A DNA stretch of 63,801 nt, counting the filler, from Olpidium bornovanus S191 (lineage: Eukaryota; Fungi; Olpidiomycota): the NCBI GenBank assembly GCA_017911155.1. It is 25 parts of 25 records of this genome, joined end to end, with 100 filler letters (N's around TTAATTAATTAA, not from the genome) between each part and the next. Parts side by side here need not be neighbours in the genome. Positions count along the whole stretch, not along the records: positions 48,235 to 51,487 come from JAEFCI010011717.1; 24 more parts are not named here. One strand, 5' to 3'. The stretch's first letter is position 1, and every line of letters starts with the position of its first letter. The notes beneath the pieces were generated by a model. The model was not told the DNA's origin. It ran no database searches and saw nothing but the letters and a program-made list of their open reading frames with translations. A program made the position numbers and the translations under genes. Shown here piece by piece: positions 13,415 to 62,647 of this stretch.

Positions 13415-14887
13415 CTGTCCGAAAGGTGGATANNNNNNNNNNNNNNNNNNNNNNNNNNNNNNNNNNNNNNNNNNNNTTAATTAATTAANNNNNNNNNNNN
13501 NNNNNNNNNNNNNNNNNNNNNNNNNNNNNNNNCGCCGGAGACTGCACTGCGCAGTTCGGAACGCTGTAGAGTTTCTACAGGCTTTTGGTTTGTTTTGTAT
13601 GGCGTCGGCGTGTGGGATTTACAGGGGGAAGAAAGGGGGGATGATTCCCGCAGGAGTCTGCGCTACCGGCTACGTCTGACCCCCTTTCCCCTTTTTTTCC
13701 AACACCCTTCCCCCCCCCCCCTTTTTTTTTCCTTCAAACAACCGAAAACAACGAGGACGCCCACAGGAGTTACCGCTTTCAGGAGGGCGAAAATGCGGAC
13801 TCCGACTACGCGGGCACGCAACTGTATTGCTTGGGGTTTTGCTTGACAGCCACGCGCTCACGCGCTTTAGTAACATTGCTTGCGGTTTTTGCTTTATGGT
13901 CGCGCGCGCCCACGTGGGGTTCCTGCTCCCAACTGGTTCCATACAATTCCGGTTCATCCCGATTCGTTGCAGACCGCTGCTGTACCCGTTCCAGCTGCTT
14001 ATGTCATCCAGCGTTCTCATTGTTGTAGAACAAAAGACGAATTTTTCGCCAATTATGATATAGGATTGATATTTATATATCACAAACTATTCAATGGAAG
14101 TCCATAATTACTATCCATCGACAAATAGCCTACGCTTTTAGGTAGGTATTATTCATTTAATATGTACTTGTATCTGGAGTACATATCTAAATATAAAAAC
14201 AATAATCCGGCTACCAATTACAACATTGGCTTATATACAAATTTTATTTACCATTTAAACTAACCGTTATATTATATCTGTAATATAATATTTAACTAAG
14301 GTTTGGATAATAGTTTCTAGTATTTGCATAGTTAGATGTGATCGTTCAAATGCTTAATGAGGCACATTTAGGGCACTATATTGCATTAGCTAGCAAATTG
14401 GTTCACTAGATATTAGTGGACGAATCGAATGCGGGTAAAATATTGTTTAATTCAATTTAAATGAATTGATAATTGCAATACTAGTAAAGTGTAAAGTGTG
14501 TAGTCCAACGAACGGCATATGCAGTGCGTCCTCAATCTTTTCAAATATCCGAAAAAACAACAACGGCGCGGCGCCACACGGCGGTGACCTCGTGCCTTTT
14601 TCCTCTCGTCGATGGTAATGACGTTGTAACGTCCGCCCGGGCGTGTGCGTTAGCTGATGGGGTTATTTTATACTTGGTGCGTGAGTGAGAAAGCGCGAGG
14701 GCGAGAGAACCCGGTTTGCGGCCGAAGAGGAGAGAGAGAGGAGAGGAGAGAGGACGGGCGGGCGGAGGGGAGAAATATGGGGGAAAGAAGAAAGGGGGAG
14801 AAAGAAGGGGGGGAGGAAGCGGGCGCTCTCGCTCTCTCTGCTCTCTCTCTGCTCTCTTTCTCTGCTCTCTCTCTCTCTCTCTCTCTC

Positions 14888-24601: not shown

Positions 24602-25671
24602 CATGCGATACTTGCCAGAGGTACAAGACGGGAGGACGTCAGCAAGGGATGCTACCCCCGCTCCTTATCCCCGAAGCGGTTTACAGACCTTGCTATGGAT
24701 GCCTTCGAGCCTCCCTACCCTTCGCAGGGATATGACAGCATACTGCTGGTCATAGATCGCCTGACGAAACTTGTGCGGCTAGTCCCTGCACGCAAGGACG
24801 ATACGCCAAGACTACCGCGGAGCGGTTCGTCAATGCTGTCGTGCGCCACCAAGGGCTACCCGACCGCATAGTCACAGATCGCGGAGCGATATGTACATCC
24901 AATTTCTGGACCGCTCTATGCCAAGACTTAGGCATAGAGCAGCAGATCGCTACTGCCCGCCACCAGCAGACGGATGGCCAGGCAGAGCGAGCCATAGGCG
25001 TCATCAAGACCATGATCGCCTCGCATATAGGATCTCAGCATACCGACTGGTTATTGGCGCTGCCTATGCTCGAGTTCCTATACAATTTGACTCCCCATTC
25101 GACAACCAGACAGTCGTCTCATATGTTAGCATATGGCACTGATCTGAAGGAGACAGATCATATCCGCCAAGCGAGGACACTCGAGGACCTATGACGAGTA
25201 CTCCAAGATGCCCGCGTCGCGCTTGAGAAGGCGCAAGATGCACAGGCCAAAGCATAAAATAGAAGGCGCCGGAATGTCAAGTTTGTCGAAGGCGAACAAG
25301 TACTGCTACGGCGAGAGGCCGTATCACACGACCCCCGTCTAGCCGCAAAATATAGAGCGCCGTATATCGGCCCCTATAGGATCACTCACGCCGACCATGA
25401 CCGAGACAACTACCGACTTCTATTACCATCGGGCATAGAAATACACTCTGTCTTTCACGTTTCCCTACTAAGAAAGTACCAAGAACCGGAAGACAGGAAT
25501 AGACAAGTCAATAGACCAGGCCCGGACGCCAAGAATGGGTACAAAGTAGACAAGGTGCTCGCCACTCGGCTGCGCCGAGGACGAAGGCAGTACCTTGTTC
25601 TGAGGCTTGGACACGACGCGTCAGAGGCTACCTGGGAATACGAAGAAAACCTTGAGAACCTAGAGCATTAA
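24602..25671 (+). mobile_element. Ty3/gypsy chromovirus remnant: integrase (CxxC, core, GPY/F) plus chromodomain, with stops and frameshifts
   Basis: CDTCQRYK; VIDRLTKL; GLPDRIVTDRG; HQQTDGQAER; YIGPYRI; IHSVFHVSLLRKY; YKVDKVLATRLRRGRRQYLV...ATWEYEENL. Confidence 0.95.
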
Positions 25672-25797: not shown

Positions 25798-27060
25798 CTA
25801 CCTTACCTGGTAGTTGTACGTAATCCACATAGGTGGAGGCTTGTCCGGGAACTTCTTATGGAACTCGACGAGCTCCTCCGACAGGGAAGAATTGTATGCT
25901 TCCACATACGTCAAGAACTCTCGCACAAGGCGAGACCCCGCAGAGCAGTTCGCACGCGCCGTCAAGCCATCGGGCTCGCGGCGAATATGCGGCTTCGAAA
26001 GATAGGCATGGAGCTCGCCCGTCATACGAGATATCGTCAAGCCGGTATCAGCCATCCACCCGCCCGTCAAGTTCTCACAGGCCTTCCCACGCTTAAACGG
26101 GAATTGTGTATGAACAAGAGAGCGGCAGTGGTGGTACCAACGGTTCGCTATCATCGTCGAGGCAAAGCTCCTACACCAACCGCCTAGAAGATCTCCGGTC
26201 TCTTCATCGTATAGCCAAGCCTCCCTCGCCCTACCTTCGGCATCAAGGTTATGCAAGTACAGCACGTCAATTCCATGTTTCCGGCAGAAAAATGTGATCA
26301 GATCCTTGCGCTCTATGGTTTCGGTTTTCTCCCATGTGGGCTGTTTTCTTTACCTTTTGACCTTGAAGAGCAATTGCTTGCCGGCCCGATATTGGTATGA
26401 TAGAATGTTCTCAATGGCTTGCATGTCTGCAATTTCCTCGCGCACCTCTACGGGCATGTCTGTGGTGGTTTCCGCGGGTCCTGCTACTGGTTCGAGGTCC
26501 GCAGGGTTGTAGAGTCGACGTTTGTCTATGGTTACGTCGAAACATTCAATGACTTTGTCGGAGCGCGAGTCACACAGCCTGTACGCCTTGCTGTCATGGA
26601 ATAGCCAACTAGCACCAGCTTCTGAGTGGTGGGTGCAAGCTTGCCCAGCTCTTTGTTGTCCTTCAGGAGATGAGAGTAGGCTGTGCTCCCAATATGCACA
26701 GCCGGTCCAAGTTTAGCTTGTTGTTGTAGAACTCGGTGTGCGGGATTCCTCCGTCATGGTGCTTGTGTGGTGATGTGTTATAAAGGTAAATCATGGTTTC
26801 CCAGATTTTGTTCCACAGCTTTTGGGGTAAGTTGGCGGCAATCATGGTTGATCGCGCCCGGTCAGCCAGTTTCCGGTTGATTCTCCCTACAATCCCATTT
26901 TGCTGGGGTGTTTCTCGGGCAGTTGTCTCGAATGCGGATCCCGCGAGTCTTCAGCCATCCCTGGTAGGAGTCACCTTAAAACTCACCACCGCGGTCTGAG
27001 TGGTGTACCCTGATGGGATAACCAAACTTTTCGTCAAAGGGGATGTAGTTTTTTTTTCCA
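25798..27060 (-). mobile_element. Ty1/copia-type integrase remnant followed in frame by a chromodomain-like segment and an unassigned ORF tail
   Basis: HSDRGGEF; TPQQNGIVGRINRKLADRARSTMIAANLPQKLW; LVLVGYS-HDSKAYRLCD...VIECFDVTID; then IENILSYQYRAGKQLLFKVKR*RKQPTWEKTETIERKDLITFF. Contains frameshifts and stops. Confidence 0.85.
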
Positions 27061-28857
27061 CAGTTCCCCTGGTAAAATGGATCTATCTACCATTTACAAT
27101 CCCCGCCCCCCCCCTTTCCCCACAAGAAAATAACAAACGTAGAGTACAGAGGAGGCAAGAAGCGGAGCGAACGCGCGAAAGGACAGATGAAGGAAGTGCG
27201 AAAGGACGGAGGGCAGGCGAAGAAGCTGACGAGCAGACGAGAGAGAGCGGAAGGGGGAGAGCGAGCGAGAGAGAGAAAACGGGCCGATCGAGGAGCTCAT
27301 CGGGCAAGCTGCTGTGGAAACTCAGCGAGGGGAATTGGAATTAGGGGAGTTATATAAGGAATTTTGCCGCTCCCCTCTAAGACCCGGTGTCTGCCTACAA
27401 CTGCTCCTTCTCCAATCCCGACCTCTCGTCATTCTCCAGATTCGTAAATAATTCTTGAGAAGTCTTCGAATTGGATCTCGCCGATTTTAACGTCGTCGCG
27501 CTCCTCCTCACCGTCCAGGAGTCCACAGCGCTTGGCATCGTCATCGTCATCTTCCTTTTCAACTGCAACGCGTTCAATGACTGACCGTTTTTGAACCCGA
27601 TTGCCGTCTTTTCCTTGTCAACTGTTCGCCGCCACTGCCAGCGTCGTCGAGGGTGAAGCTATCGTTCCCGTTCCTCCAGCGCTGATGCCATACCGCACAA
27701 CCGTCACGTTCGGATACCACAATGGAACAATGCGCTCGACTGTGGAGGGTGTTGGCTCAGCTGGACATCGAAATTTCTGTCTGAGTTGGCGCGCAACGCC
27801 TCGCCGAGTAATTGTGGGCCTTGCGAGGCGACAACATTTTTATTGGGGGGGGGGGTCTTCGTTTCTCGGTAAACTGAAAGGCCCACATTGCCCGCATTAG
27901 AACACAAGGGCAAAGAAGTACCGGTCGCTGCCGGTTGCCGGTGTTCCTGGTCGTCGACGTGGTTGCCTGTATGCAACCTTTTGCGGTCGTTCTCGGAGTG
28001 CGGGGCGTCAATTCTCGTTCGAAGTGTCTTTGTTGACTACAATTCCGTCTGTTCTTGATTCTCGGCCCCTCACCAACTTTCTCCGGTCAAATCACTCAAG
28101 CCTGGAGACATCAGGGCAAGCGCAGTGCCTTGAGTCGGACGCCCCTGCCGTTGATTTTCTCAGCTCCGCCGTACTTGCGGTTCACTGTTCCTGCATTCGT
28201 CCCTTTCACCGACTGCAGTTTTCTGAGATTCCTGCCCCGATGCGGTTTCCGGAACCGCCAGAGGTCGGCCCACTCGTTCTCTCGCTTGCTTGGTGCGCTT
28301 CGTGAGCGTTCGGGGGACTTGGCGCGAAGTCGGCTCCGGAAGCCCGAAGATGGTGCCGGAGTGGGGCGACGCAGGACAGCGCGCGGCAGGAAGTCCCCGC
28401 CTCCGGCCGCCGAGGGGGCGCGTGGGGCTTTCGCGAACCTGCAACTCCCGCACGCGCTCGTGATCGTCCAGCCGCACCATCCCTGCCCGCATCCGCAAAA
28501 CCCCCGGGCGTACATTCCGGTCTCGCGTCGGTCCCATCCTCGATCTCGGTCGCAGTGAGCCGTAGGGACCATTTCGGTGGGAAAACCACCGCGAGCTCGC
28601 TCCGTGAACCAGCTTCGTTTCGCCGCCGCTCGTTCGTTCTTAGTCCGTGGACGAACATCCTCGCAAGACGAGCTCCGCCGGCGGCGAGCACCGGGTGTTC
28701 CGGTATTGGTCGCGTTCGGCTCGGTGTACATGGGCGGAAGCCGCTCCGGGCGAGAGCTGAGAGACGCCCGTAGCGGAAGGGAACTGCAAGCGCTCCTGCG
28801 GCGCTGCACGCCTCGGCGGGCGATCAGGTCGAAGAAAGCGCCGCCGCGCCTTCAACG

Positions 28858-30424
28858 ATGGAACAACCGATGCCGAACGCCCGTGCTTTGCCTACGACCG
28901 CTGAGCAGAAGCACGACCAACAGCAGCAGCAGGATTCTACTAGCCGCAATCACGACGCTCCGTCAAACCTGGGCGCGTGTCCGCTCGGGCCCCGTTGGTC
29001 CAGATCCCACGACAGGCCACGTGCGTCGCTCTACTCGCAATCCCCTTCAGGCAGCTCCATGACCGCCGACGCGCTGCACGAGCCAGCGAGCAGCAAAGGC
29101 CTCCGTGCAGAGTTGGATCAGCGGAACGGTGCTCCCGCTGGGACCGCGGAAAGGGCCAAAAATATCACGCAAAGTTTTGGACGGGATCAGCACGCGTCCA
29201 TGTTGGGAGTGTCTTTTTTCGGATACAGCTGGCCAATACTTCTGGCGGTTTTCCCGCCGCTCGGCAGTCTATGTTTTGGGAGCGTCGAGGCGTGGTCGGA
29301 CTTCTTCTCGCTTGTTCTGATAGGGATTTTTCTCTATCACATAATCAAAGGTACGCACAGCGTCACTTCCGTTGGCTGCTGAGAATCGCAGCAACAAGCT
29401 TCTGGTGACGCACTCGAGGTCTTTCTGACGGTCTGCTTCGTACTTAATTTTTGCTTCCCGGGAACAAGTTCCGTGGGAACTCTATTATGCTGCCGCGGGA
29501 AAGGCTCCCATAACTGATTCAACCGGCACTCCCGCCTCGGAAGACGACAGCTCGGCTCCGCCTAATCCTCGCCGCGAAGCAGCGCGGAGGTCGCTTTGGT
29601 ATCAAGAACGGGCATCCTTGGGCCTGGTGCTTTTGTCGCCGGTTTTCGGCGGGGGAACCCTCTACTTTCTCAAGTCTTCCCTTTCAAACTACGACAAGTA
29701 CTTCAGCGATCTCAGCATTTTGCTATTCGTCCTCGCCGCGTCCTTCCGTCCGCTGGCCCACGTGTTATCTCTCAGCAAAAACAGAGCTGCGATGTTGCAG
29801 CAGAGAGTGCACTTCCCGTACACGGAGGTTGGAGTTCTCCGTCAGCGCATCGATGCGCTGGAGGTAGCGTTGGCGTCGCTGAAGGAGACTGTCGCTACTT
29901 CGCAAAGGGAAGTGGCGGAAGGGACGACAAAAGCCGTGGTGCCGCAACTCCAGGAGATCAGCAAGGCCCTTAAGAGGAGCGAACGACGGGACGGATTCTT
30001 GCGGGGCTACTCGGAGGAGCGGTTTCAGACGCTTGAGAGCCGGATGCGCGAGCAGGAGAATGGCTTGCAATTGATTGCCGCCCAGATTGCGGCGTTGCGC
30101 TCCATGCGCACGCAGCAAACTTCCACCCGTGTTGACGCCGCGTCCCCCGGGCTTCCTCGGGGAGATTGGGTAGCAAAAGAAGTCGAACGACCTGTCGCTC
30201 CACGCGCGAGCGGCGGGGTGATATCCTCCGCTTTATCTCTCATGGCAACCACGGCTCTTTTGCCAGTCACTTCGGTCGCGTGGGTCTGCGCGTTCTTCGT
30301 TCACATGCTACCCTTTTGGTTCTTCGCGTCTCGGCCCAAGCTGAGGACACTTGATGAGCGCTTCCTGGACGACGAAGGAGTGGGAGGTCTCTGTAGGGAC
30401 CAGAGGCGAGGCCGGAACAGCTGA
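28858..30424 (+). CDS. Fungal multi-pass membrane protein of unknown function with C-terminal coiled-coil (exons 28858-29350, 29469-30424)
   Basis: SWPILLAVFPPLGSLCFG..WSDFFSLVLIGIFLYHIIK|VPWELY, further hydrophobic segments and a heptad region. In-frame GT-AG intron. Confidence 0.85.
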
Positions 30425-30639
30425 AGGGCGTTCCTCTGACTTCATGATTTGTTCAATTCCCCATAACTCGACGGTCTTCCGCCGTTCACGTTTTTTTTTT
30501 GGCTTTTGTTTTTGATTTTCTTTTTCTTGGCTTTTTGTTCGATGTGCGCCGATTTCGTCTGGCCGATTTCTGTTTTCGTCTACCAGGGACGTCCCACGTA
30601 TCCGGGAGGCCGGGCCTTACTGGATTGCGGCAATTCCAT

Positions 30640-31560
30640 TCCTCACCTCCACTGGAGCTCGAGAATTCACTTAAACGTACGTATTCGACGAGTAGGCCGG
30701 AAGAAAACCTATCTCGACTCCTTTTGTAGACAGACACTCGTTCTTCCTTCTGTGTGGCGACCTCCTTTCCATTGTACATATACCAAGTGGCCGTGATTCC
30801 CTCTACCGCAAGTCCGTTTTAGTTCTCAGCCCCTTTTCCTTACGCGACGGCGCGTTTTGGCACTTTACCCTCTTTTGATGAGCCTGGCGATGTGTACTTC
30901 TGGAGAAATCTGGACGTTCTATGGGTCATGCCTGTGAGATACGGAATTAGTCAAAAGGGAGATTACCCCCTCTTCTCCGAGTACCCAAGCGACTTCGTCC
31001 GCCACGTAGGGCGAAGTAGCGCAGAAGGCGGAGCGTATGTTCTGTGATTTGGTGCGTCTTTTCTCCGAAATCAAGTCGACAAGCACCGACAGGTCAAACG
31101 AGCCAAAGGTGCAAACCCGGCACGATGTGGTTGCCTTTCACACCGCGCGGACACTAGGGACATTCTCAGGCGGCGATTGCTCTGGGACTTTCCATCCCCA
31201 TGCACGCACACACTTCCACGGGCCCATTAGCTCCTAATCTTCTTGCCCGAATTGGCACCTCGTGACTGCTTCGCGCACAGCTCGGACTGGTGTGCCGCCG
31301 TATCAAAGTACTAATCTTCACATTACCCTAAATAAAGAGAAAACTGAGCGCGCCCTTGTCTCCGCGGCTGATCAAATTCCGCGCCCATTTTTCCGAGTCT
31401 TTAAAGAGAACTGCAGATGGGAAATGCCCTCGAATTCCCCTCCAAAACGCTTGAGGACTCTCGTGCAGCCAACATCGACCTCACTTTCTTGTTGCCTTAT
31501 GCGCATATGCAAAAGAACGTTTCTGGATATTCCATCAAGCGCATACAAATAATCGTACGA
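30640..31560 (-). CDS. Possible multi-exon hypothetical gene
   Basis: Short open exons with GT-AG ends join as ...HTLRLLRYFALRGGRSRLG|MTHRTSRFLQKYTSPGSSKE|EGITATWYMYNGKEVATQKEERVSVYKRSRDRFSSGLLVEY. No family recognised. Confidence 0.35.
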
Positions 31561-48234: not shown

Positions 48235-48270
<36 letters not shown>

Positions 48271-48892
48271 AAAAAAACAGTTAACGGGAGAGGCGGAAAC
48301 AAGGGGAAAAAAAAGATGCCGCATCGAAACGAGCTTCACCGCGAGCCTTGGCAGCAGCCGCGCCCCGCTCCTGTGCCAGACATGGGCGTCCCGACCTTTC
48401 CGGGGGCGCCCTCCTCCTCCTCGCCGGATGCGTCGTATCAGAGTCCTTGCCGCCCGAAGAGCGTCCCGGACTCTGCCCGGAAGATCCTGGTGGCCCGCCA
48501 CCTTGTCACGCCCGGCAGCCCAACGGCAGACGATCCCCGCGGGAATGACGCCTTCAGTTTCCCCGTGGTGCCGGACGCCGCCGGAGTGTCGTCGTCGTCG
48601 GCCTCGGATTCGTCCGCGGTGCCGGAGAAAGACCCGCGGCGAAGGCGTCAGGCCGCGTTTTCAGGACAAGCGCGCGGCACGCGGGGCGGACAAGAGCCAG
48701 TACTGCACGCAAGCAGGAACGCTGCTCCCTCTTCGGCGCGCACGGTCACGCCGTGCGAATTAAGATATTGCGGATCTGCTGCGGCACTCACATGCAATGG
48801 CACACTCTTTCTCGGTCGGAACGGGGCCCGTCTGCTCTGCTCTGCTGGGGAATGCGAGCGAATTCCGCCCCTGTAGGCCTTAGTGGACTTCG

Positions 48893-49430
48893 CCCTCCCG
48901 CCCTTGCTTGCGGCACTGCCGGCCGCGCGCCCCGCGTTCAGCGCGCCGCCGTCTGCCGCAGGAAGGCCCTCGGCGCGCGGCACTCGCGGGAGGCGGCGCG
49001 CGCACGCCCCGTCGTCGGGCGGCCGCAACGGTGATCTCCACCACCGTCGCGATGGTGCCCTCACCCGCCCCAGCCGCCGCGCCCGGCGCGCCCGGCGGAG
49101 CGTGGTCGCGGGCGCGGCCGCGCACCGATTCGCGGAGCCGCGCGTACTCACCCTCGCAGCGGTTCCGCCGGACATTCCGCCCGCGCTCGTCACTGCGCTC
49201 GCGGAGTTTCTTAACCGGCCCCACCCTTAGGAACTGCACGCCACGGCGGGCGTCTGCTTCAAGCGGCGGCGCCGGCAGCGGGGGGAATAGAAGAGACCCC
49301 CGTCCCCACCGCCGGCGAAGGAGACGGGGGCGGGCGCCGCCTCCGTGGGGCCCCCAGTGCGCGAGCCGGCGGCACCGACGGTCGGCCGGAAGCTTTGAAC
49401 GCCGCGCACGCCGCTTCGCCGCGGCCCCAC
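48893..49430 (+). repeat. GC-rich dispersed repeat, homologous to 58700-59270 (minus strand)
   Basis: Shared blocks such as GGCACTCGCGGGAGGCGGCGCGCGC, CCACCACCGTCGCGATGGTG, GATTCGCGGAGCCGCGCGTACTCACCCTCGCAGCG and AGAGACCCCCGTCCCCACCGCCGGCGAAGGAG. Confidence 0.92.
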
Positions 49431-49452
49431 GACGTGCTCGGCGTCGTGTGGT

Positions 49453-50620
49453 GACGTTTCGTTTATACATATTTCCGGTGCGGAGAATAAAATGGCAGAC
49501 ATGTTGAGCCGGGCACCGCTTATCCAATGGAGTTAGAGGAGGACGAGGATGAGGATGTCGTCAAGATATATATGCTTCAAGTCCATGATTCTGTTCGACA
49601 AGCGCTTCTGGAGATTTCTATAGTCTCTCCGAAACTGATCTGGGAACTTGGGCACTACGCTATCAAAATGGAGAATCACTTATTGGTATTCCGCGTTAGA
49701 TCAAACGGGCGCTCTGGCAGTTCTTTGTCTAAGGTGGATATCTTTGGAAGCGGCCGCGACTGGGGCGAGTGCTTTTACCTTGTTGCCTTATCGGGGAAAG
49801 TAAATCCAAAACCGAAATTATACGCGGGATACACGATGACTTGGCTGCCGGTCACCGAGGAGTCGAGCACAGATAGGTTCGTGCTTGTGAACTTTATTTG
49901 TGGAAGGGGATGTACAACACTGTTAAGAAATACGTCGAGACACGCGATGCTTGTCAGAAGTTTAGTAAGAAACGATATTATAGGGAACTACACCGGGACA
50001 TTCCTAAAGTGATCCACTACAAATGGTTTGGAGGCCTGATCACAATGCCACGAAGCAAGCACTTTCGTTATTTGGTTTTGGCCCGAGAAGGTTTCACCAA
50101 CTTTGTGGAAGGACGGGCACTTTCCTCGAATCAGACTGAATCGGTCTGCCGATTTCTTCTTGATGAAATTTTTGCGTGTTGCTGTTGCTGTGTCGAGATT
50201 TGAGCGGATAGGGAAGAACTAAATGCACAGGAAGCTACGACCTTTTTCCGTCAGTTTGGGATATGATTGCGTCTGATGATTGCATGTAACTTGGAAGCGA
50301 ACAGCAAAGCGGAGCGTGGGCATCAACCCATTATCGCGGCTCTGCAACGATTGGCCTGCGAACGAGGAGAGGACTGGGCAGCCTTGCTGCCCTCTGCTTT
50401 GTGGGCGGATCGTTCCACGACAGGCCGTATGACTGGCTACAGCACAGCTTATCTCATGCACGGAGATCACATGAACCTGCCGGTGGCTGATTCTATACTT
50501 GCATGGACTACACTTTCCTGAACTAACAACATGACGACCGAAGAACTTCTGGAGCTTCGAATATGACAGATCTCCCGACCTGACGAGGATCTCCAATTAG
50601 CCCGAATGTGTCTCCGAGAG
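49453..50620 (+). mobile_element. Ty3/gypsy pol remnant: RNase H end plus integrase, pseudogenised
   Basis: IHISGAENKMADMLSR; TVKKYVETRDACQKF; RYLVLAREGFTNFVEGRAL; EANSKAERGHQPII; DWAALLPSALWADRSTT. Multiple stops. Confidence 0.92.
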
Positions 50621-51369
50621 GGGGCTGTTATGTTGATTAATCGTGACGTGGCTGTACTGTTTTGCCGTCAGGATGGTAAAATATTCTTGCCATTTGTACC
50701 ATGGCATGTTACGACTAAACGATTCCCATAATTCCCTCTGTTCTGTTTCGTTGCACGAAAACAAAATAGCACAGGTAATCTGATGACGCACGATACGGGG
50801 ACAGCACTTAAACATCTGTTGGGCAAATATCAGAGAGCATTTGTAATGACGCAACGTGCAGCAAAACGTTGCGAATACGTCGGCGTGCGATTTTCGAAAG
50901 ATACCGAAAAAGCTGGATCATCATCAACGAAAATCAATATCTTATCACCTAAATCTTTGCCGTACGTCTTAATTATACATTCCTGCGTGTCGATAATGTC
51001 TTGTATGATTTTTGGGGTGTATCTCGTGTGGCAATCCTCTTCTTCTACCGGATGCGTTTTTTGCAGAACTTCTCTCTCGGGTGGGTCATCGAGTATATTC
51101 AACTCTTCGTGGATGGTATCGTGGAGAGGTGGGTTTGATATGCAGAGGTCTTTACAGTTTACGATATTTTCCATTTTCGTATCGAGATCGATAATAGCGC
51201 TGATTACAATGACATGACGGTACCTCCCCTTCAATTTGTTAATAATCAAATCTCGACAAACTGTCGATTTTCCAGTACATATGGAACCATTCACACAACA
51301 TACAAATTCGTCAGCAAGCACTAGATGGTCTCTTTTTGCTGCTTGATTATCAGCTGCTTTAATGGGCAT
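50597..51369 (-). pseudogene. A32-like virion DNA-packaging ATPase (Polinton/virophage/PLV or NCLDV type), one frameshift near 50855
   Basis: Walker A FVCCVNGSICTGKST, YRHVIVIS strand, Walker B KILIFVDD, and after a 1-nt deletion the Arg-finger segment AR-LRHYKCSLIFAQQ...PRIVR, then YSHVTIN. Intronless, about 38% GC in a sampled 60-bp line. Confidence 0.85.
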
Positions 51370-51379
51370 GTTCCTTTAC

Positions 51380-51487
51380 TTAATCATCACAACAAAGTGA
51401 TAAGCCTGAAGATGAACTTGGAGTCTTTGCGGATTTCGGTTTAGGCAACGATTCATCATCTTCTTCGACTAAATCGCTTTTAAACAA
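51380..51487 (-). CDS. 3' end of an unknown ORF, 10 bp upstream of the ATPase ATG
   Basis: 36 open codons from the contig edge (LFKSDLVEEDDESLPKPKSAKTPSSSSGLSLCCDD*), similarly AT-rich. Confidence 0.4.
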   Translation of the reverse strand: MFKSDLVEEDDESLPKPKSAKTPSSSSGLSLCCDD

Positions 51488-54890: not shown

Positions 54891-56848
54891 AGAAATCCAG
54901 AACAACGGCGGCGTACAGAAGAAGCGTTCCGTAACACGTTATCAGCACCAAACGCAGTACCATTGCCGGCGACTGCACCCTCTCCCCAGTCCGCCGAGCG
55001 CGCCGACTTCCCCCGAGCGTGCAGCCCCCCCGGCGGACCGTCGCGTGGCCTCCACCGTGCGCCCCACCGACGCCGCCGTCGCCGAGCACCGCGCGTCACC
55101 TTCGCCGCCGCGCTTCCGCGGCCACCGCGCTTTCGCCGCGGCACCGCCTTTTGCCAAGTTCGCCTTCCGCCGAGCGCAGCGCGCCTCGGCCGCGCCGTCA
55201 CCACTGCGCGTGCACCGACGCTCCCGCCGCCACTCATTTCTCCGCCGAGCTAGCGCTCAACCGCCTCCGCCGCACCTCGCCGCCGCTCCCTCGCGACCGC
55301 CGCCACCGCGCGGCTCGCCCGCCGCCGCCGCAGCCGCGCCGCACCTCGACCACCGCCACGGCCACCAGAGAGACGGTTTCTGCCTGCCGCTCTGCCCGCT
55401 CGCCCTCGCTCCCATGTCCGCTCTGGTTCATCGTGAACGGCGACGAGTTTTTCCCGGCGGCGGGCGCCGCTGCTTTACGAGAATGGGCTCGCTCCGACTG
55501 CGAGGCCTACGGGGAGATGTATCTCCGTGTCTCAGACCTTTACAAACGCGTTCTGGACGACTATGACACCGCTCACAAGGGTTGGGAAGCTCTTAAAGGT
55601 CACTTTGAGGACGTGGGATCCAGTGCCCGCCTCGATCTGAAGGCAGCGCTTTACGCATCAAAGATGGACACATCAGAGGCATTCGACCATTTCCTCTTGC
55701 GAACGAAAGAGCAAGTCTTTAGGCTGCAAAATCAGGGCGAAAACAATATCAGAGATTGGGAGAAGGAGACACGAGATGTGCTTCGAATGGGAAGCCTCTT
55801 ACTGTTCCATGCAACAATCGATGCCTTAGAAAGTCGAACCCATCGGGACCCCAACACAAAAGCTTGGTCTCCCCCCTCACTCGGCGAGACTGTGGCTGTA
55901 TTCTGGGAGGCGAACGCCCCCCGGGGTCGAGCAGAGACGGCGAACAACGGGGGGACACTCTACTCGAGCGCAAAACCAAGAACGAGGCAGGGAGGCGACA
56001 ACGCGCCGTCCACATGCAATCCGGGTATCAAGTGCTACATTTGTGGCAAGCTGGGGCACATCTCCTGCGAATGGCGCTCCTGTCATGAGAAGAAGTCTGA
56101 CAAGCAGGGAGCCACCAAAGGGAGTGACAAGGGGGGCGACATAAAGGACAATCAAGTTCACGTCGCCGCCGCCAGCGACGGCCGGGAGAACGAGGGACTG
56201 GCATTGCTGGGCACAACAGCCGCCAACGGGGAAGCCGGGAAACGGCTCCTAGGCAGCGGCACATCCTTCCACGTAGCGGTTCGCCCGGACAACCCGGAAG
56301 GGACGACCGCCGCCAGAAAGACCCTGCGAGTCGGAAACAATGAGGTTCTTACATAGACCGTCAAGGGACGGATTCGGCTGAACCCGTTCACCCATCTTAT
56401 AACGGCAAGGAGATCGCCACTGAGATGCCCCTCACCATAAAGAGGCAAAGAGTTCAGCGGGCATGCACTAGTCATCGAGCAAGCGCTTTCCCACGCCAGG
56501 CAAGGACACTCTGGCGCCAGATCTGAAGACTGCGAGGTCTGCGCGAGAACCAAGGTGATCAGTGTGGCTGCCCCAAGGAGAAGGGCTAGCGACAGCGCAT
56601 GCCACGCACAGAGCCGATTAGACAAAGTCCACACCGACGTTATGATGTTGCCGGACGCATTGATTGGCGGAGCAAGGTATGCCATCGTGTTCCTTGATGA
56701 AGCAACACGGGGCGCACAGGTTTACGCCATGAAACACAAAAGCGAGAGTCTCCAAAAGTACCTCGAGTACTGCGACACAACCAAGCTCACGACCGAAGGA
56801 CGCGTGAAGATCCTGTTTGCGAAGGGGGAGGCGAGTACTGCACAACTG
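54891..56848 (+). mobile_element. Ty1/copia element 5' part: LTR end, PBS, gag, zinc knuckle, degenerate protease, integrase start
   Basis: LTR end ...CGTAACA at 54936; UBN2-like gag (AHKGWEALKGHFE...RLDLKAALYASKM); CYICGKLGHISCEW; LLGSGTSFHV (catalytic D to G); CEVCARTK; LDKVHTDV...RYAIVFLDEATR. Confidence 0.9.
54937..54950 (+). promoter_or_regulatory. Primer-binding site complementary to the tRNA-Ile anticodon arm (half-tRNA priming)
   Basis: CGTTATCAGCACCA directly after TAACA. Its reverse complement TGGTGCTGATAACG matches eukaryotic tRNA-Ile(AAU) TGGTGCTAATAACG except at position 34. Confidence 0.7.
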
Positions 56849-58699: not shown

Positions 58700-59270
58700 G
58701 CGGCGGACGACGCCGAACGGCGAGGCGGCGTGCGCGGCGCTCAAAGCCTCTGGCCGACCGTCGGTGCCGCCGACTCGCGCACGGGGGTCCCTCACGGAGG
58801 CGGCGCCCGCCCTCGGCTCCTTCGCCGGCGGTGGGGACGGGGGTCTCTGCTCCGCCCGCTGCTGGCGCCGCTGCTTGACGAGGACGCCCGCTGTGGCGCG
58901 TAGTTCCGCAGGGTGCGGGCGGCCAAGGCGCTCCGCGAGCGCGTGTGGAAGATGCTCCAGCACGAGCGCAGTGACGAGCGCGCTGCGAGGGTGAGTACGC
59001 GCGGCTCCGCGAATCGCTCCGCGTCCGCGCCCACCCTCCGCCGGCCGCGCCGGCCGGGGGCGGCTGGGCCGGGTAGTGACACCATCGCGACGGTGGTGGA
59101 ATTCGACCGTTGCGGCCGCCCGACGACGGGGCGGGCGCGCGCCGCCTCCCGCGAGTGCCTCGCGCGGGGGCCCCTGCTGCGGCAGATGGCGGCGCGCTGG
59201 ACGCAAGGCGCGCAGCCGGCAGTGGCGGCGGTGGGGGGGGGGGGGGGGGGGGGGGGGGGAAGCAAGGTCG
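58700..59270 (-). repeat. GC-rich dispersed repeat, second copy (see 48893-49430)
   Basis: The reverse complement aligns by eye with 48893-49430, with substitutions and short indels. Confidence 0.92.
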
Positions 59271-60784: not shown

Positions 60785-60946
60785 NNNNNNNNNNNNNNNN
60801 NNNNNNNNNNNNNNNNNNNNNNNNNNNNTTAATTAATTAANNNNNNNNNNNNNNNNNNNNNNNNNNNNNNNNNNNNNNNNNNNNAAAACCTGGGGCAGGG
60901 CGAGGAGGGCGGGCAAAAAACGCGAGACGTTGTAGGGGGGGGGGAA

Positions 60947-61005
<59 letters not shown>

Positions 61006-61176
61006 AACCCCCGGGAGGGGAACCCTTTCTCTATTCTCTCTCTTCTTCCCCTTGGGAGGGGGGGGGGAACGGGCACAGCCGAAAACCGAAAAGAAAAAAA
61101 AAACCACCCCCCGAAAACCCGAAAACCCCGGCGGAGGAGACTCTCGAGAGAAGGGCAGGGGCAAGAGGGAACGCCA

Positions 61177-61787
61177 ATGGCAGGGCCGTCGAGGAGGAAG
61201 AGGACGCACAAGGGCGTCGGGAGGGACAAGCTCGTGAGGAACGCGTTCAGGGGCGCGAAGGCCGTGGACCAGGTGCACGCGGAGCTGGCGGACCCCGCCA
61301 AGTTGCAGCGGCTAAGGAACCGGGAAGTCGACCTCGACCTGCCGGGCTTGGGCCAGCACTATTGTCTCGAGTGCGCGTACGTTTTTTTTTCATATTATTT
61401 TTCGGACGACTAATTTCCCGTGCCACCGCCACCGCCCCCTCTTCCTTCCTCTCCGCTTCCCTCGCCGGCTGAGGTGGGGGAGGTGGGCGGCGGTGGGAGA
61501 AGGGTGGGGGGGGGGTGGAACCAGACGAGAGCGAGGGCCAAACTGGAAATTTCCCGCTTAACGTTTCGTTGGCTCTTTTCCGGGGCGACTGCGCAAACGC
61601 CGCCGGTGGCGCTTATGCCGGTTGTTCTTTTTGTTTTTTCGGTTCACCCCCCGGGCGGCCGCTTTTTCGCGGCAGACGGCATTTTGCGAACGACGAGCAT
61701 TTGAAAGAACACCGCCGCGGAAAGCTGCATAAGAAGAGGTGCGTGTGCTTGTTGGGCGGGGGGCGGGGGGGGGGGGGGGGGGGGGGT

Positions 61788-61823
<36 letters not shown>

Positions 61824-62115
61824 GGCGGAGGGAGGGCCTTCGCCAAGCGTCCCGTCACCTGAACGCCGTCGGGCGTCGCCCGCACCGCTGCATACTCCAG
61901 CTGCTGCCCGCTTTGCGCCGCCGCTGATTTTTTTTGCTTCTTTTTTTCTTTCCAGAGTCAAGCTGCTGAAGGAGGTTCCTTATTCCCACGCGGAGGCGGA
62001 CGCCGCGGCCGGCCTGTCGACGGATAACGGCAAGGGACGGAAGGACCTCCGGGGACCGCCGCCGCCAATACCGGAGCTTTACAACGACGAGGATTCGGAC
62101 ATGCGGCAGGACTGA
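61177..62115 (+). CDS. BUD20: Zinc finger protein BUD20/ZNF593 (60S ribosome biogenesis); exons 61177-61376, 61676-61738, 61956-62115
   Basis: DLDLPGLGQHYCLECA|RHFANDEHLKEHRRGKLHKKR|VKLLKEVPYSHAEADAAAG. Phase-consistent introns. Confidence 0.95.
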
Positions 62116-62647
62116 AATAGGCGTGGGAGGGGGCTCTGTCGAAGTGTCCCTCACTGCGTGGACGTCCAGTTGATACCCATTCTTCTTGCCCTTTCCCGTT
62201 TCCCCTCACCCCCCCCCTTCACACACACGCACGCACACACACACCATCTCCCGCTCTCGCGTGTTTTTTTTTTCAAACAAGCATTTTGCACTTTTAGAAT
62301 TTGGCAAAAAAGGACGAGGAGGATCCTAGACAACCGAAAGCGCGGCCGGCCTCTTTTTTTTTTTTTCTTCTTCTTTAGCGCCCCGGTCGCATGGAAATCG
62401 CACAGATTATCACGCGACAAAAGACAGATTATTTTTTTTTCCCCGCGATCGCGAGCACGCTGCCACGCTTTCGGCTCAGGCCGCCTCGCCTGCAGAGTTT
62501 CAGCTTCATTNNNNNNNNNNNNNNNNNNNNNNNNNNNNNNNNNNNNNNNNNNNNTTAATTAATTAANNNNNNNNNNNNNNNNNNNNNNNNNNNNNNNNNN
62601 NNNNNNNNNNGCCAAAAAAAAAAAAAAAAAAAAAAAAACGAAATCAG

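What the first reader, a model, noticed from the sequence alone, without database searches (positions are those of the whole stretch)
50597..51487. Endogenous viral packaging ATPase (A32-like) relic in a fungal contig
Seen: an intronless, AT-rich (~38% GC versus GC-rich host exons) minus-strand gene with Walker A (GSICTGKST), Walker B (ILIFVDD) and the downstream RHY...Q...P..VR motif, broken by one 1-nt deletion near 50855. An unknown ORF ends only 10 bp upstream, which is virus-like compact spacing. Known: this motif order is typical of A32/FtsK-HerA packaging ATPases of Polintons/Mavericks, virophages, Polinton-like viruses and NCLDVs, and it is not a normal fungal gene. Inference: a decayed integrated capsid-encoding DNA virus or Polintovirus of an early-diverging fungus. 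This is the best candidate here for an undescribed system.
Basis: partly seen in the sequence, partly recalled or inferred. Interest (0 to 1): 0.88.

Follow-up and report, generated by a model that had tools for sequence, protein, structure and literature searches.

The report
Broken viral packaging gene in fungus
This is a broken, clipped copy of a viral DNA-packaging motor gene fused to a decayed integrase-type sequence; it is likely a fairly young leftover of a small Polinton-like DNA virus in a likely fungal genome, a kind of relic already reported from chytrid and mycorrhizal fungi, although its own virus lineage appears to be unnamed.

Summary
The gene is real. Window 51369-50621 (minus strand) encodes an A32/FtsK-HerA viral packaging ATPase in two frames. 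Intact environmental homologues (48-74% identical over each half) pass the Pox_A32 cut-off, and a model of one matches viral A32, STIV2 B204 and FtsK.

Corrections: GC is 41%, not 38%. The break lies just after Walker B (about 50906-50913), not at 50855.

Public contigs from 4 of 4 laid runs (2 studies) bridge that junction; one low-depth contig spans the break unchanged. GT-AG skips hint at a host transcript antisense to the ATPase.

The ATPase sits in a well-supported clade of unnamed metagenomic proteins, loosely beside a clade holding a chytrid protein. The 3.25-kb contig ends 118 nt upstream and no genome is held, so capsid and polymerase genes could not be tested.

Best reading: a young relic of a Polinton-like virus in a likely fungal genome. 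Such elements are already reported in chytrids and mycorrhizal fungi, so this is a new member of a known kind.

The parts
51380..51487 (-). 3' tail (35 codons plus stop) of an upstream ORF cut by the contig end; acidic and Ser-rich; possibly the orthologue of the 162-aa charged protein upstream of the ATPase in L001
   Evidence: 10-nt spacer. L001 has an ORF ending 9 nt before its ATPase. Similarity of the tails is weak: BLAST E=31; end-anchored alignment reached by 97 of 5000 shuffles for P0158 and 566 of 5000 for P0159.
50914..51369 (-). A32-like ATPase, 5' half (152 codons): start codon, Walker A (51262-51288), helical insert, Walker B (50920-50940)
   Evidence: 58% identical to P0002 over 156 aa, 48% to P0003, 62% to P0001 over 92 aa; E=2.6e-37 to the homologue profile; no in-frame stop.
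50906..50913 (-). Frameshift in a T-run directly after Walker B
   Evidence: Frame switch of the homologue alignments. One contig of run X4 spans 50815-50961 with no gap against the window (depth 2.3, so weak).
50621..50905 (-). A32-like ATPase, 3' half (95 codons): arginine-finger motif RHY (50843-50851), sensor Gln (50816-50818), second conserved Arg (50786-50788); clipped about 10 residues early
   Evidence: 74% identical to P0001, 63% to P0002; E=1.9e-31 to the homologue profile; Pox_A32 E=0.16 on its own.
50597..50625 (.). Sharp tail-to-tail junction (about 50620/50621) between the ATPase and the integrase relic; both coding sequences are cut; the ATPase frame reads on to a stop at 50597 in integrase-derived DNA
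   Evidence: Bridged by contigs of 4 of 4 runs laid: X1 50035-50913, X2 50552-50835, X3 50345-50734, X4 50535-50838. No terminal repeat at the junction.
49450..50620 (+). Decayed retroelement pol fragment, likely Ty3/Gypsy: RNase-H-end-like motif, acidic linker, H2C2 zinc finger, integrase core; 7 stops in the last 319 codons, plus frame changes upstream
   Evidence: Integrase_H2C2 E=1.6e-4 (below cut-off), rve E=0.13; PFV integrase E=0.29; aligns to the window's chromoviral integrase (26 of 2000 shuffles as good). The RNase H motif is recognised from recall; Pfam did not detect it.
48911..49421 (.). GC-rich dispersed repeat that ties the contig to the host assembly
   Evidence: 83% identical over 523 nt to window 58718-59227 on another contig; many diverged copies in the laid runs; one X1 contig (49172-49874) bridges it to the integrase relic.
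49877..49983 (+). Two alternative GT-AG skips (49877-49957 and 49877-49983) in contigs of probable RNA runs
   Evidence: table 5 (X1 depth 11.8, side 30; X2 depth 5.2, side 70); dinucleotides checked.
51129..51275 (+). GT-AG skip inside the ATPase 5' half, on the strand antisense to the ATPase
   Evidence: table 5: one contig of X2, depth 3.9, only 21 letters on the short side, laid at 85% likeness, so weak. X1 shows a second skip (51079-51266) whose listed ends are not canonical. Dinucleotides.

Best explanation
The stretch is a frameshifted, 3'-clipped gene for a viral A32-type DNA-packaging ATPase, likely left by a small Polinton-like capsid virus that likely entered the nuclear genome of a likely fungal host not long ago. 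Shown: ATPase family membership, one frameshift after Walker B, loss of about 10 C-terminal residues, and a sharp fusion to a convergent integrase relic. From family knowledge (PMC11703096): the intact protein is a ring motor that uses Walker A/B, an arginine finger and a sensor glutamine to pump the viral genome into a double-jelly-roll capsid. Inferred: viral DNA came to lie in or beside an older, already decayed Ty3/Gypsy relic, and a deletion or illegitimate joining removed the end of both genes. Inferred: the copy is now dead as a protein (the frameshift separates the Walker motifs from the arginine finger), and what RNA there is comes from host read-through on the opposite strand with cryptic splicing.
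For: Family: P0002 and P0003 pass the Pox_A32 cut-off (28.1 and 39.7 bits against 22.8); 105 of 107 aligned homologues match Pox_A32; the model of P0002 (pLDDT 96) ranks viral A32-type ATPases first in BFVD and STIV2 B204, HerA and FtsK in the PDB. Small-virus origin: short stand-alone ~262-aa gene with 9-10 nt spacing in both the window and L001; all 12 IMG/VR loci found with related alignments are gene-dense contigs of 4-24 kb; the charged ORF upstream in L001 resembles an ORF near the ATPase in L012 (16 of 2000 shuffles as good) and one in L005 (37 of 2000); the only named relative among 23 looked up is a chytrid protein on a 20.8-kb contig (P0021, Boothiomyces), and chytrid A32 genes are reported to group with PLVs. 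Endogenous: same contig as a host repeat; junction bridged in 4 of 4 runs from 2 studies; the same runs hold another contig of this assembly almost unchanged. Young: 27 of 28 clade-conserved residues kept; 0 stops in 245 codons against 7 in 319 in the integrase relic.
Against: No capsid, penton, polymerase, recombinase or terminal repeat was seen: the contig ends 118 nt upstream and no genome is held. No labelled PLV, Polinton, virophage or NCLDV ATPase was in the trees, so the group is inferred. The link to the chytrid-containing clade is not firm (90/92; 89), and the IMG/VR loci are distant (24-27% identity; 86-99 bits on the clade profile against a median of 182 for the chytrid clade). Foldseek's top named hits are mostly giant-virus proteins, at 18% identity or less. 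The capsid call for the IMG/VR loci rests on a poor model (pLDDT 35.5). The age contrast is only suggestive (Fisher p=0.021 for stops alone, 0.15 if the frameshift is counted). No holder run is on record as RNA, and they were picked for holding this stretch. The fungal identity of the host is weakly tested.
Confidence: 0.68

Rival explanations
1. The ATPase and the neighbouring integrase are two genes of one Polinton/Maverick-type (or mavirus-related) element with its own rve integrase, decayed together.
For: An H2C2-rve integrase abuts the ATPase. Fungal Maverick-related A32 genes are reported from Glomus and Rhizophagus, and a fungal pPolB element lineage without structural genes is described (PMC13215967).
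Against: Both genes are cut at the joint instead of ending in stops. The integrase is preceded by an RNase-H-end-like motif (recalled), which points to a retrotransposon pol. It has 7 stops in 319 codons against none in the ATPase, and higher GC (48% against 42%). In L001 the ATPase has an intact end and no integrase directly behind it in the 91 nt held.
Confidence: 0.13
2. The ATPase is a fragment of an endogenous giant virus (Nucleocytoviricota, e.g. Mycodnaviridae or the fungal NCLDV fossils).
For: Most named top Foldseek hits are NCLDV A32-like proteins. Giant-virus sequences with A32 genes are reported in zoosporic fungi (PMC13533422; PMC7017919).
Against: Those hits are at 18% identity or less, and BFVD seems to hold few PLVs (recalled). 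The longest contigs on record for the 23 relatives looked up are all under 21 kb. Four scans of IMG/VR with the closest relatives found nothing. No viral family among 144 window ORFs scanned, though those contigs are unlinked.
Confidence: 0.1
3. The ATPase DNA comes from a co-sampled virus or another organism and was joined to host DNA by the assembler; the frameshift is a homopolymer error.
For: Short-read, fragmented assembly; the break sits in a T-run; assembly artefacts are known to fake broken PLV genes (PMC10120064). One of the two studies may be related to the source of the assembly (warning).
Against: Contigs of 4 of 4 runs from 2 studies bridge the junction with 0-3 differences, and one spans the break without a gap. 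A + strand GT-AG skip inside the ATPase fits host processing. No relative in 185,579 prokaryote genomes (0 of 198 and 0 of 22 pattern matches confirmed).
Confidence: 0.05
4. The fragment is kept by the host as a template for antisense RNA that silences incoming relatives of the virus.
For: GT-AG skips indicate a + strand transcript running from a host repeat through the integrase relic into the ATPase, antisense to it; the layout recurs in 2 studies.
Against: Only three low-depth canonical skips, and the one inside the ATPase is weak. No small-RNA or stranded data. Cryptic splicing of read-through RNA explains it without selection. Another relic-rich contig also yields a spliced transcript.
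Confidence: 0.04

Closest known systems
Endogenous Polinton-like viruses of chytrid fungi (Spizellomyces punctatus PLV, Allomyces macrogynus element; chytrid A32 genes within Aquintoviricetes) - PMC7805220 (passages; one supplement searched), bioRxiv 10.64898/2026.06.19.733378 (passages and section 7; supplements closed)
   Same: A32-like ATPase of PLV size in a likely fungal genome; compact gene spacing; nearest named relative is a chytrid protein (P0021, about 24-29% identical to the halves).
   Different: Only a broken ATPase and an ORF tail are held; capsid genes untested. It falls in a separate, well-supported clade (100/99) in which none of the 13 clusters looked up has an organism name. 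It was not placed against those papers' sequences.
Fungal Maverick-Polintons (Glomus/Rhizophagus) and the fungal lineage of pMVRE group 1 - bioRxiv 10.64898/2026.06.19.733378, PMC13215967 (abstract and passages)
   Same: A32-like ATPase in a fungal assembly with an rve-type integrase close by.
   Different: No pPolB on the contig; the integrase is convergent, cut at the joint, more decayed and likely retrotransposon-derived.
Vaccinia A32 (Pfam PF04665) and STIV2 B204 (PDB 4KFS), FtsK-HerA superfamily - PMC11703096 (passages)
   Same: Walker A, Walker B, arginine finger and sensor glutamine in the same order; same fold in the model of homologue P0002.
   Different: 13-18% identity; a long helical insert between Walker A and B; the window copy is split and clipped.
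Retrotransposons nested in endogenous small DNA viruses: Ngaro in Cafeteria EMALEs (PMC8547959, passages), Ty3/Gypsy in a Hydrurus PLV (PMC10120064, passages)
   Same: Retroelement and small-virus DNA side by side in a GC-rich host genome.
   Different: There the retroelement is an insertion with its ends; here both partners are cut mid-gene with no terminal repeat, and the retroelement looks older than the viral gene.
Mycodnaviridae and fungal NCLDV fossils - PMC13533422 (passages), PMC7017919 (abstract and passages)
   Same: Endogenous dsDNA-virus genes, including A32-like ATPases, in non-Dikarya fungi.
   Different: Those lie on large gene-dense contigs with PolB and MCP; nothing of that scale is seen here or among the relatives looked up.

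Membership tests
A32-like (FtsK-HerA) packaging ATPase | [quoted passage not shown] | tested here: met
   GSICTGKST and ILIFVDD align with the same motifs of intact homologues.
A32-like (FtsK-HerA) packaging ATPase | Arginine finger and sensor glutamine after Walker B (PMC11703096) | tested here: met
   RH and Q columns are nearly invariant in 107 homologues and present in the window's 3' half.
A32-like (FtsK-HerA) packaging ATPase | Pfam Pox_A32 score above the curated cut-off | tested here: met
   Met by intact homologues P0002 and P0003; the window's halves alone stay below it (E=0.16 for the 3' half, none for the 5' half).
A32-like (FtsK-HerA) packaging ATPase | RecA-like FtsK/HerA motor fold | tested here: met
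   Tested on homologue P0002, not on the window copy: pLDDT 96; top hits viral A32-type, B204, HerA, FtsK.
A32-like (FtsK-HerA) packaging ATPase | Intact reading frame able to make the motor | tested here: not met
   Frameshift after Walker B and loss of about 10 C-terminal residues.
Polinton-like virus (Aquintoviricetes) | Double-jelly-roll major capsid and minor capsid genes with the ATPase | not testable with these tools
Polinton-like virus (Aquintoviricetes) | ATPase groups with PLV ATPases | tested here: inconclusive
   Trees held no labelled references. The clade sits loosely (90/92) with a clade holding a chytrid protein; IMG/VR PLV-like ATPases fall outside.
Polinton-like virus (Aquintoviricetes) | 15-40 kb element with terminal repeats and its own recombinase or integrase | tested here: inconclusive
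   No terminal repeat at the only border held; the other border is off the contig.
Polinton/Maverick (Polintoviricetes) | Protein-primed PolB | not testable with these tools
   None on the 3.25-kb contig; the rest of the element is not held.
Polinton/Maverick (Polintoviricetes) | Own stand-alone rve integrase | tested here: inconclusive
   An integrase abuts the ATPase but is cut, convergent, more decayed and preceded by an RNase-H-end-like motif (recalled).
Nucleocytoviricota (Mycodnaviridae or fungal NCLDV fossils) | Giant-virus core genes nearby and ATPase nested among NCLDV A32 | tested here: inconclusive
   No viral family in 144 window ORFs (unlinked contigs); structural hits at 18% identity or less; no labelled NCLDV rows in the trees.
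Virophages (Lavidaviridae) | Virophage-type MCP, protease and ATPase | not tested
   Only a mavirus ATPase at rank 46 in the fold search.
Ty3/Gypsy pol (neighbour 49450-50620) | RT-RNase H followed by H2C2 zinc finger and integrase core | tested here: inconclusive
   H2C2 and rve hits below cut-off; RNase H tail seen by eye from a recalled motif, not by Pfam; no RT, gag or LTR on the contig.

The most novel reading that the evidence does not exclude
The gene marks an unnamed lineage of small capsid-forming DNA viruses that still infects this fungal lineage: the copy keeps nearly all conserved residues, close intact relatives occur in metagenomes, and the host transcribes and splices the relic antisense from a neighbouring repeat, which could feed RNA silencing against the live virus. 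That would be a virus-derived immune record in a fungus.
Probability: 0.08. Interest if true: 0.75.

Novelty: new member of a known kind. Interest (0 to 1): 0.33.

Why it matters
A preprint passage states that no such dsDNA virus has been isolated from fungi (bioRxiv 10.1101/2025.04.19.649669), so each dated footprint helps to map hosts. This one ties a likely fungal host to an ATPase clade whose looked-up members are otherwise anonymous metagenomic proteins, and its near-intact state suggests a recent infection and findable live relatives. On its own it is a 750-nt pseudogene of a kind already reported from chytrid and mycorrhizal genomes, so it adds a data point, not a new system.

Tried and rejected
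No whole genome is held, so the search for capsid, pPolB and protease genes in the assembly could not be run. PHROGs: 0 families for 5 ORFs. NCBIfam: only weak P-loop kinase hits for P0003, E of 0.024 or more. PDB sequence search with three homologues: only uridine kinases at E=0.27 and 0.52; a cellular kinase origin was rejected on profile and fold evidence. The ESM Atlas gave no answer for four sequences. IMG/VR scans with P0001, A2, A4, A7, P0023 and the upstream ORF found nothing; two broader alignments had no conserved stretch to search with. GTDB scans found nothing. The upstream ORF of L001 has one other relative and no Pfam family. Folding the putative capsid protein of L005 from 3 sequences gave pLDDT 35.5; its hits include several major capsid proteins but are not reliable. 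No laid contig reached 51396-51487 or ran over the contig end, and parts of the control contig were uncovered; neither is taken as evidence. Rfam: 0 matches in the window. Capture of viral mRNA by an active retrotransposon was considered and set aside: the two genes are in opposite orientation and the retroelement looks more decayed. Trees left out proteins under 190 or over 400 aa (131 rows; 51 rows, with 22 drawn at random from 62). One review (PMC11426020) was not held. Literature searches listed no paper on this ATPase clade, but bioRxiv supplements are closed and those of 10.64898/2026.06.19.733378 may well contain it. Earlier-finding look-ups by sequence, by a longer word list and by place were empty.
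Full report
Setting. The window is 25 short contigs joined by N spacers; the finding lies at the end of contig 48235-51487. No whole genome is held. The assembly is a GC-rich (47-65% per contig), intron-bearing eukaryote with Forkhead, WD40 and NF-X1 genes and several retroelement relics (10 of 144 ORFs scanned had a Pfam hit, none viral). A Bud20-like exon scores 29.7 and 28.2 bits on the top, fungal-type entries and 22.0 on human ZNF593, so a fungal host is likely but weakly tested. 'Early-diverging' was not tested.

The observation. The minus strand carries an ATG at 51369, Walker A and Walker B in one frame, and RHY..Q..P..VR in a second frame. An open frame from the contig end stops 10 nt before the ATG. 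GC is 41.4% over the stated span, not 38%; third-position GC is 0.40 and 0.53 in the halves against 0.64-0.87 in four host frames. A profile of 107 homologues scores the halves at E=2.6e-37 and 1.9e-31, while the best other frame of the window scores E=0.93.

What the protein is. The halves alone give only weak Pfam hits. The 5' half found one relative among 12 candidates (P0001), and P0001 found P0002 and P0003 (3 of 23 candidates). These two pass the Pox_A32 cut-off. A search of 1.84 billion representatives gave 178 hits at E up to 0.001; of 107 roughly full-length proteins aligned, 105 match Pox_A32. The model of P0002 (pLDDT 96) ranks viral A32-type ATPases first in BFVD and STIV2 B204, HerA and FtsK in the PDB. 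The four motifs that define the family (PMC11703096, passages) are present. Two scans of prokaryote genomes confirmed no relative.

Homology stops at about 50621, some 10 residues before the homologues end. From 49450 to 50620 the plus strand holds a decayed integrase with an H2C2 finger (E=1.6e-4) and rve core (E=0.13), preceded by an acidic linker and a motif that I recall as the end of retrotransposon RNase H (not detected by Pfam). It is most likely a Ty3/Gypsy pol fragment, though that call is not firm. The two genes meet tail to tail, both cut, with no terminal repeat. The integrase has 7 stops in 319 codons; the ATPase has none in 245 and keeps 27 of 28 clade-conserved residues. The contrast is suggestive (p=0.021 for stops; 0.15 with the frameshift counted) of viral DNA joining an older relic. 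Further left is a GC-rich repeat, 83% identical to another contig of the window.

Is it real and endogenous? Eight public runs from 2 studies hold part of the stretch; none is on record as RNA. Four were laid. Contigs of 4 of 4 bridge the integrase-ATPase junction, and one of X4 spans the break with no gap at depth 2.3. The same four runs hold another contig of this assembly, X1 as a near-identical 3,293-nt piece with skips that include GT-AG and CT-AC ends, which fits RNA of the same organism. Of five joints listed on the ATPase contig, three are GT-AG on the plus strand: two in the integrase relic and one, weak (depth 3.9, 21 letters on one side), in the ATPase. That hints at a host transcript antisense to the ATPase. 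The runs were chosen for holding the stretch, and one study may be related to the source of the assembly.

Which virus? In trees the window groups with P0001 and P0002, then P0003 (100/99 each), inside a clade at 100/99 (same grouping). None of the 13 clusters of that clade looked up has an organism name. Of 23 proteins looked up, one is named: P0021 from the chytrid Boothiomyces on a 20.8-kb contig. Its clade joins the window's at 90/92, short of firm. The only context for a close relative is L001 (1,407 nt): a 162-aa charged ORF ends 9 nt before the ATPase, as in the window. The tails are only weakly alike. That ORF resembles ORFs of two IMG/VR contigs (16 and 37 of 2000 shuffles; low-complexity proteins). 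All 12 IMG/VR loci found are gene-dense contigs of 4-24 kb, several of those scanned with methylase genes, but their ATPases are distant, and the capsid call rests on a poor model. No labelled references were in the trees. A Polinton-like virus is the best fit (0.68); a Maverick-type element (0.13) and a giant virus (0.10) remain open.

How it worked and works. By family knowledge the intact protein is a ring ATPase that pumps viral DNA into a double-jelly-roll capsid. In this copy the frameshift separates the Walker motifs from the arginine finger and sensor, so no working motor is expected (inference). The likely history is entry of viral DNA into repeat-rich chromatin, a deletion or illegitimate joint to an older retroelement, one indel, and low-level read-through on the other strand.

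Comparison with what is known. PLVs are reported integrated in Spizellomyces and Allomyces (PMC7805220, passages; its supplement searched). A32-like genes from numerous chytrid genomes group with Aquintoviruses, and those of Glomus and Rhizophagus with Maverick-Polintons (bioRxiv 10.64898/2026.06.19.733378, passages and section 7; supplements closed and may hold this clade). Fungal giant-virus relics with A32 genes are described (PMC13533422, passages; PMC7017919, abstract and passages). A survey found dsDNA viral regions in 153 fungal assemblies (bioRxiv 10.1101/2025.04.19.649669, passages). Retroelements inside endogenous small DNA viruses are also known (PMC8547959, PMC10120064, passages).

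Verdict. A real, probably young pseudogene of a viral packaging ATPase, fused to a retroelement relic. It is a member of the A32 family by test, works like a PLV gene by inference, and is a new member of a known kind. Interest 0.33.

Noticed in passing
window 14020-14560: A second AT-rich island (29-34% GC in 300-nt windows) in a GC-rich contig, with no frame over 44 codons lying wholly inside it and no Rfam hit; possibly another foreign insertion. Unexplained.
   Followed up: partly
window 27316-30910: One 3,293-nt contig of run X1 (similar pieces in X2-X4) skips 27991-28074 with CT..AC ends and 29347-29466 with GT..AG ends, i.e. opposite splice polarity in one contig; ORFs scanned there had no Pfam hit. 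May be overlapping sense and antisense transcripts.
   Followed up: no
window 48911-49421 and 58718-59227: A GC-rich dispersed repeat, 83% identical between two contigs, with many diverged copies in the laid runs; nature not determined.
   Followed up: partly
window 24736-25668, 26666-26950, 54935-56353: Retroelement relics: chromoviral Gypsy integrase with SH3 and chromodomain, a second integrase core, and a Copia-type gag.
   Followed up: no
L001 30-515; L012 7895-8581; L013 8825-9502; L005 216-866: A charged ORF with a shared Lys/Glu-rich helix motif recurs in small-virus contigs, next to or near the ATPase in L001, L012 and L013; no Pfam family for the L001 and L005 proteins. Possibly an unnamed PLV core gene.
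   Followed up: partly
L012 2327-5358; L013 1698-6242: Each contig carries two unrelated ORFs of 511 and 440 aa that may be multiple capsid genes, beside a ~310-aa ORF shared with L011; not tested.
   Followed up: no
window 60885-62510: Intron-split Bud20/ZNF593-like zinc-finger gene, used as a weak marker of a fungal host.
   Followed up: partly
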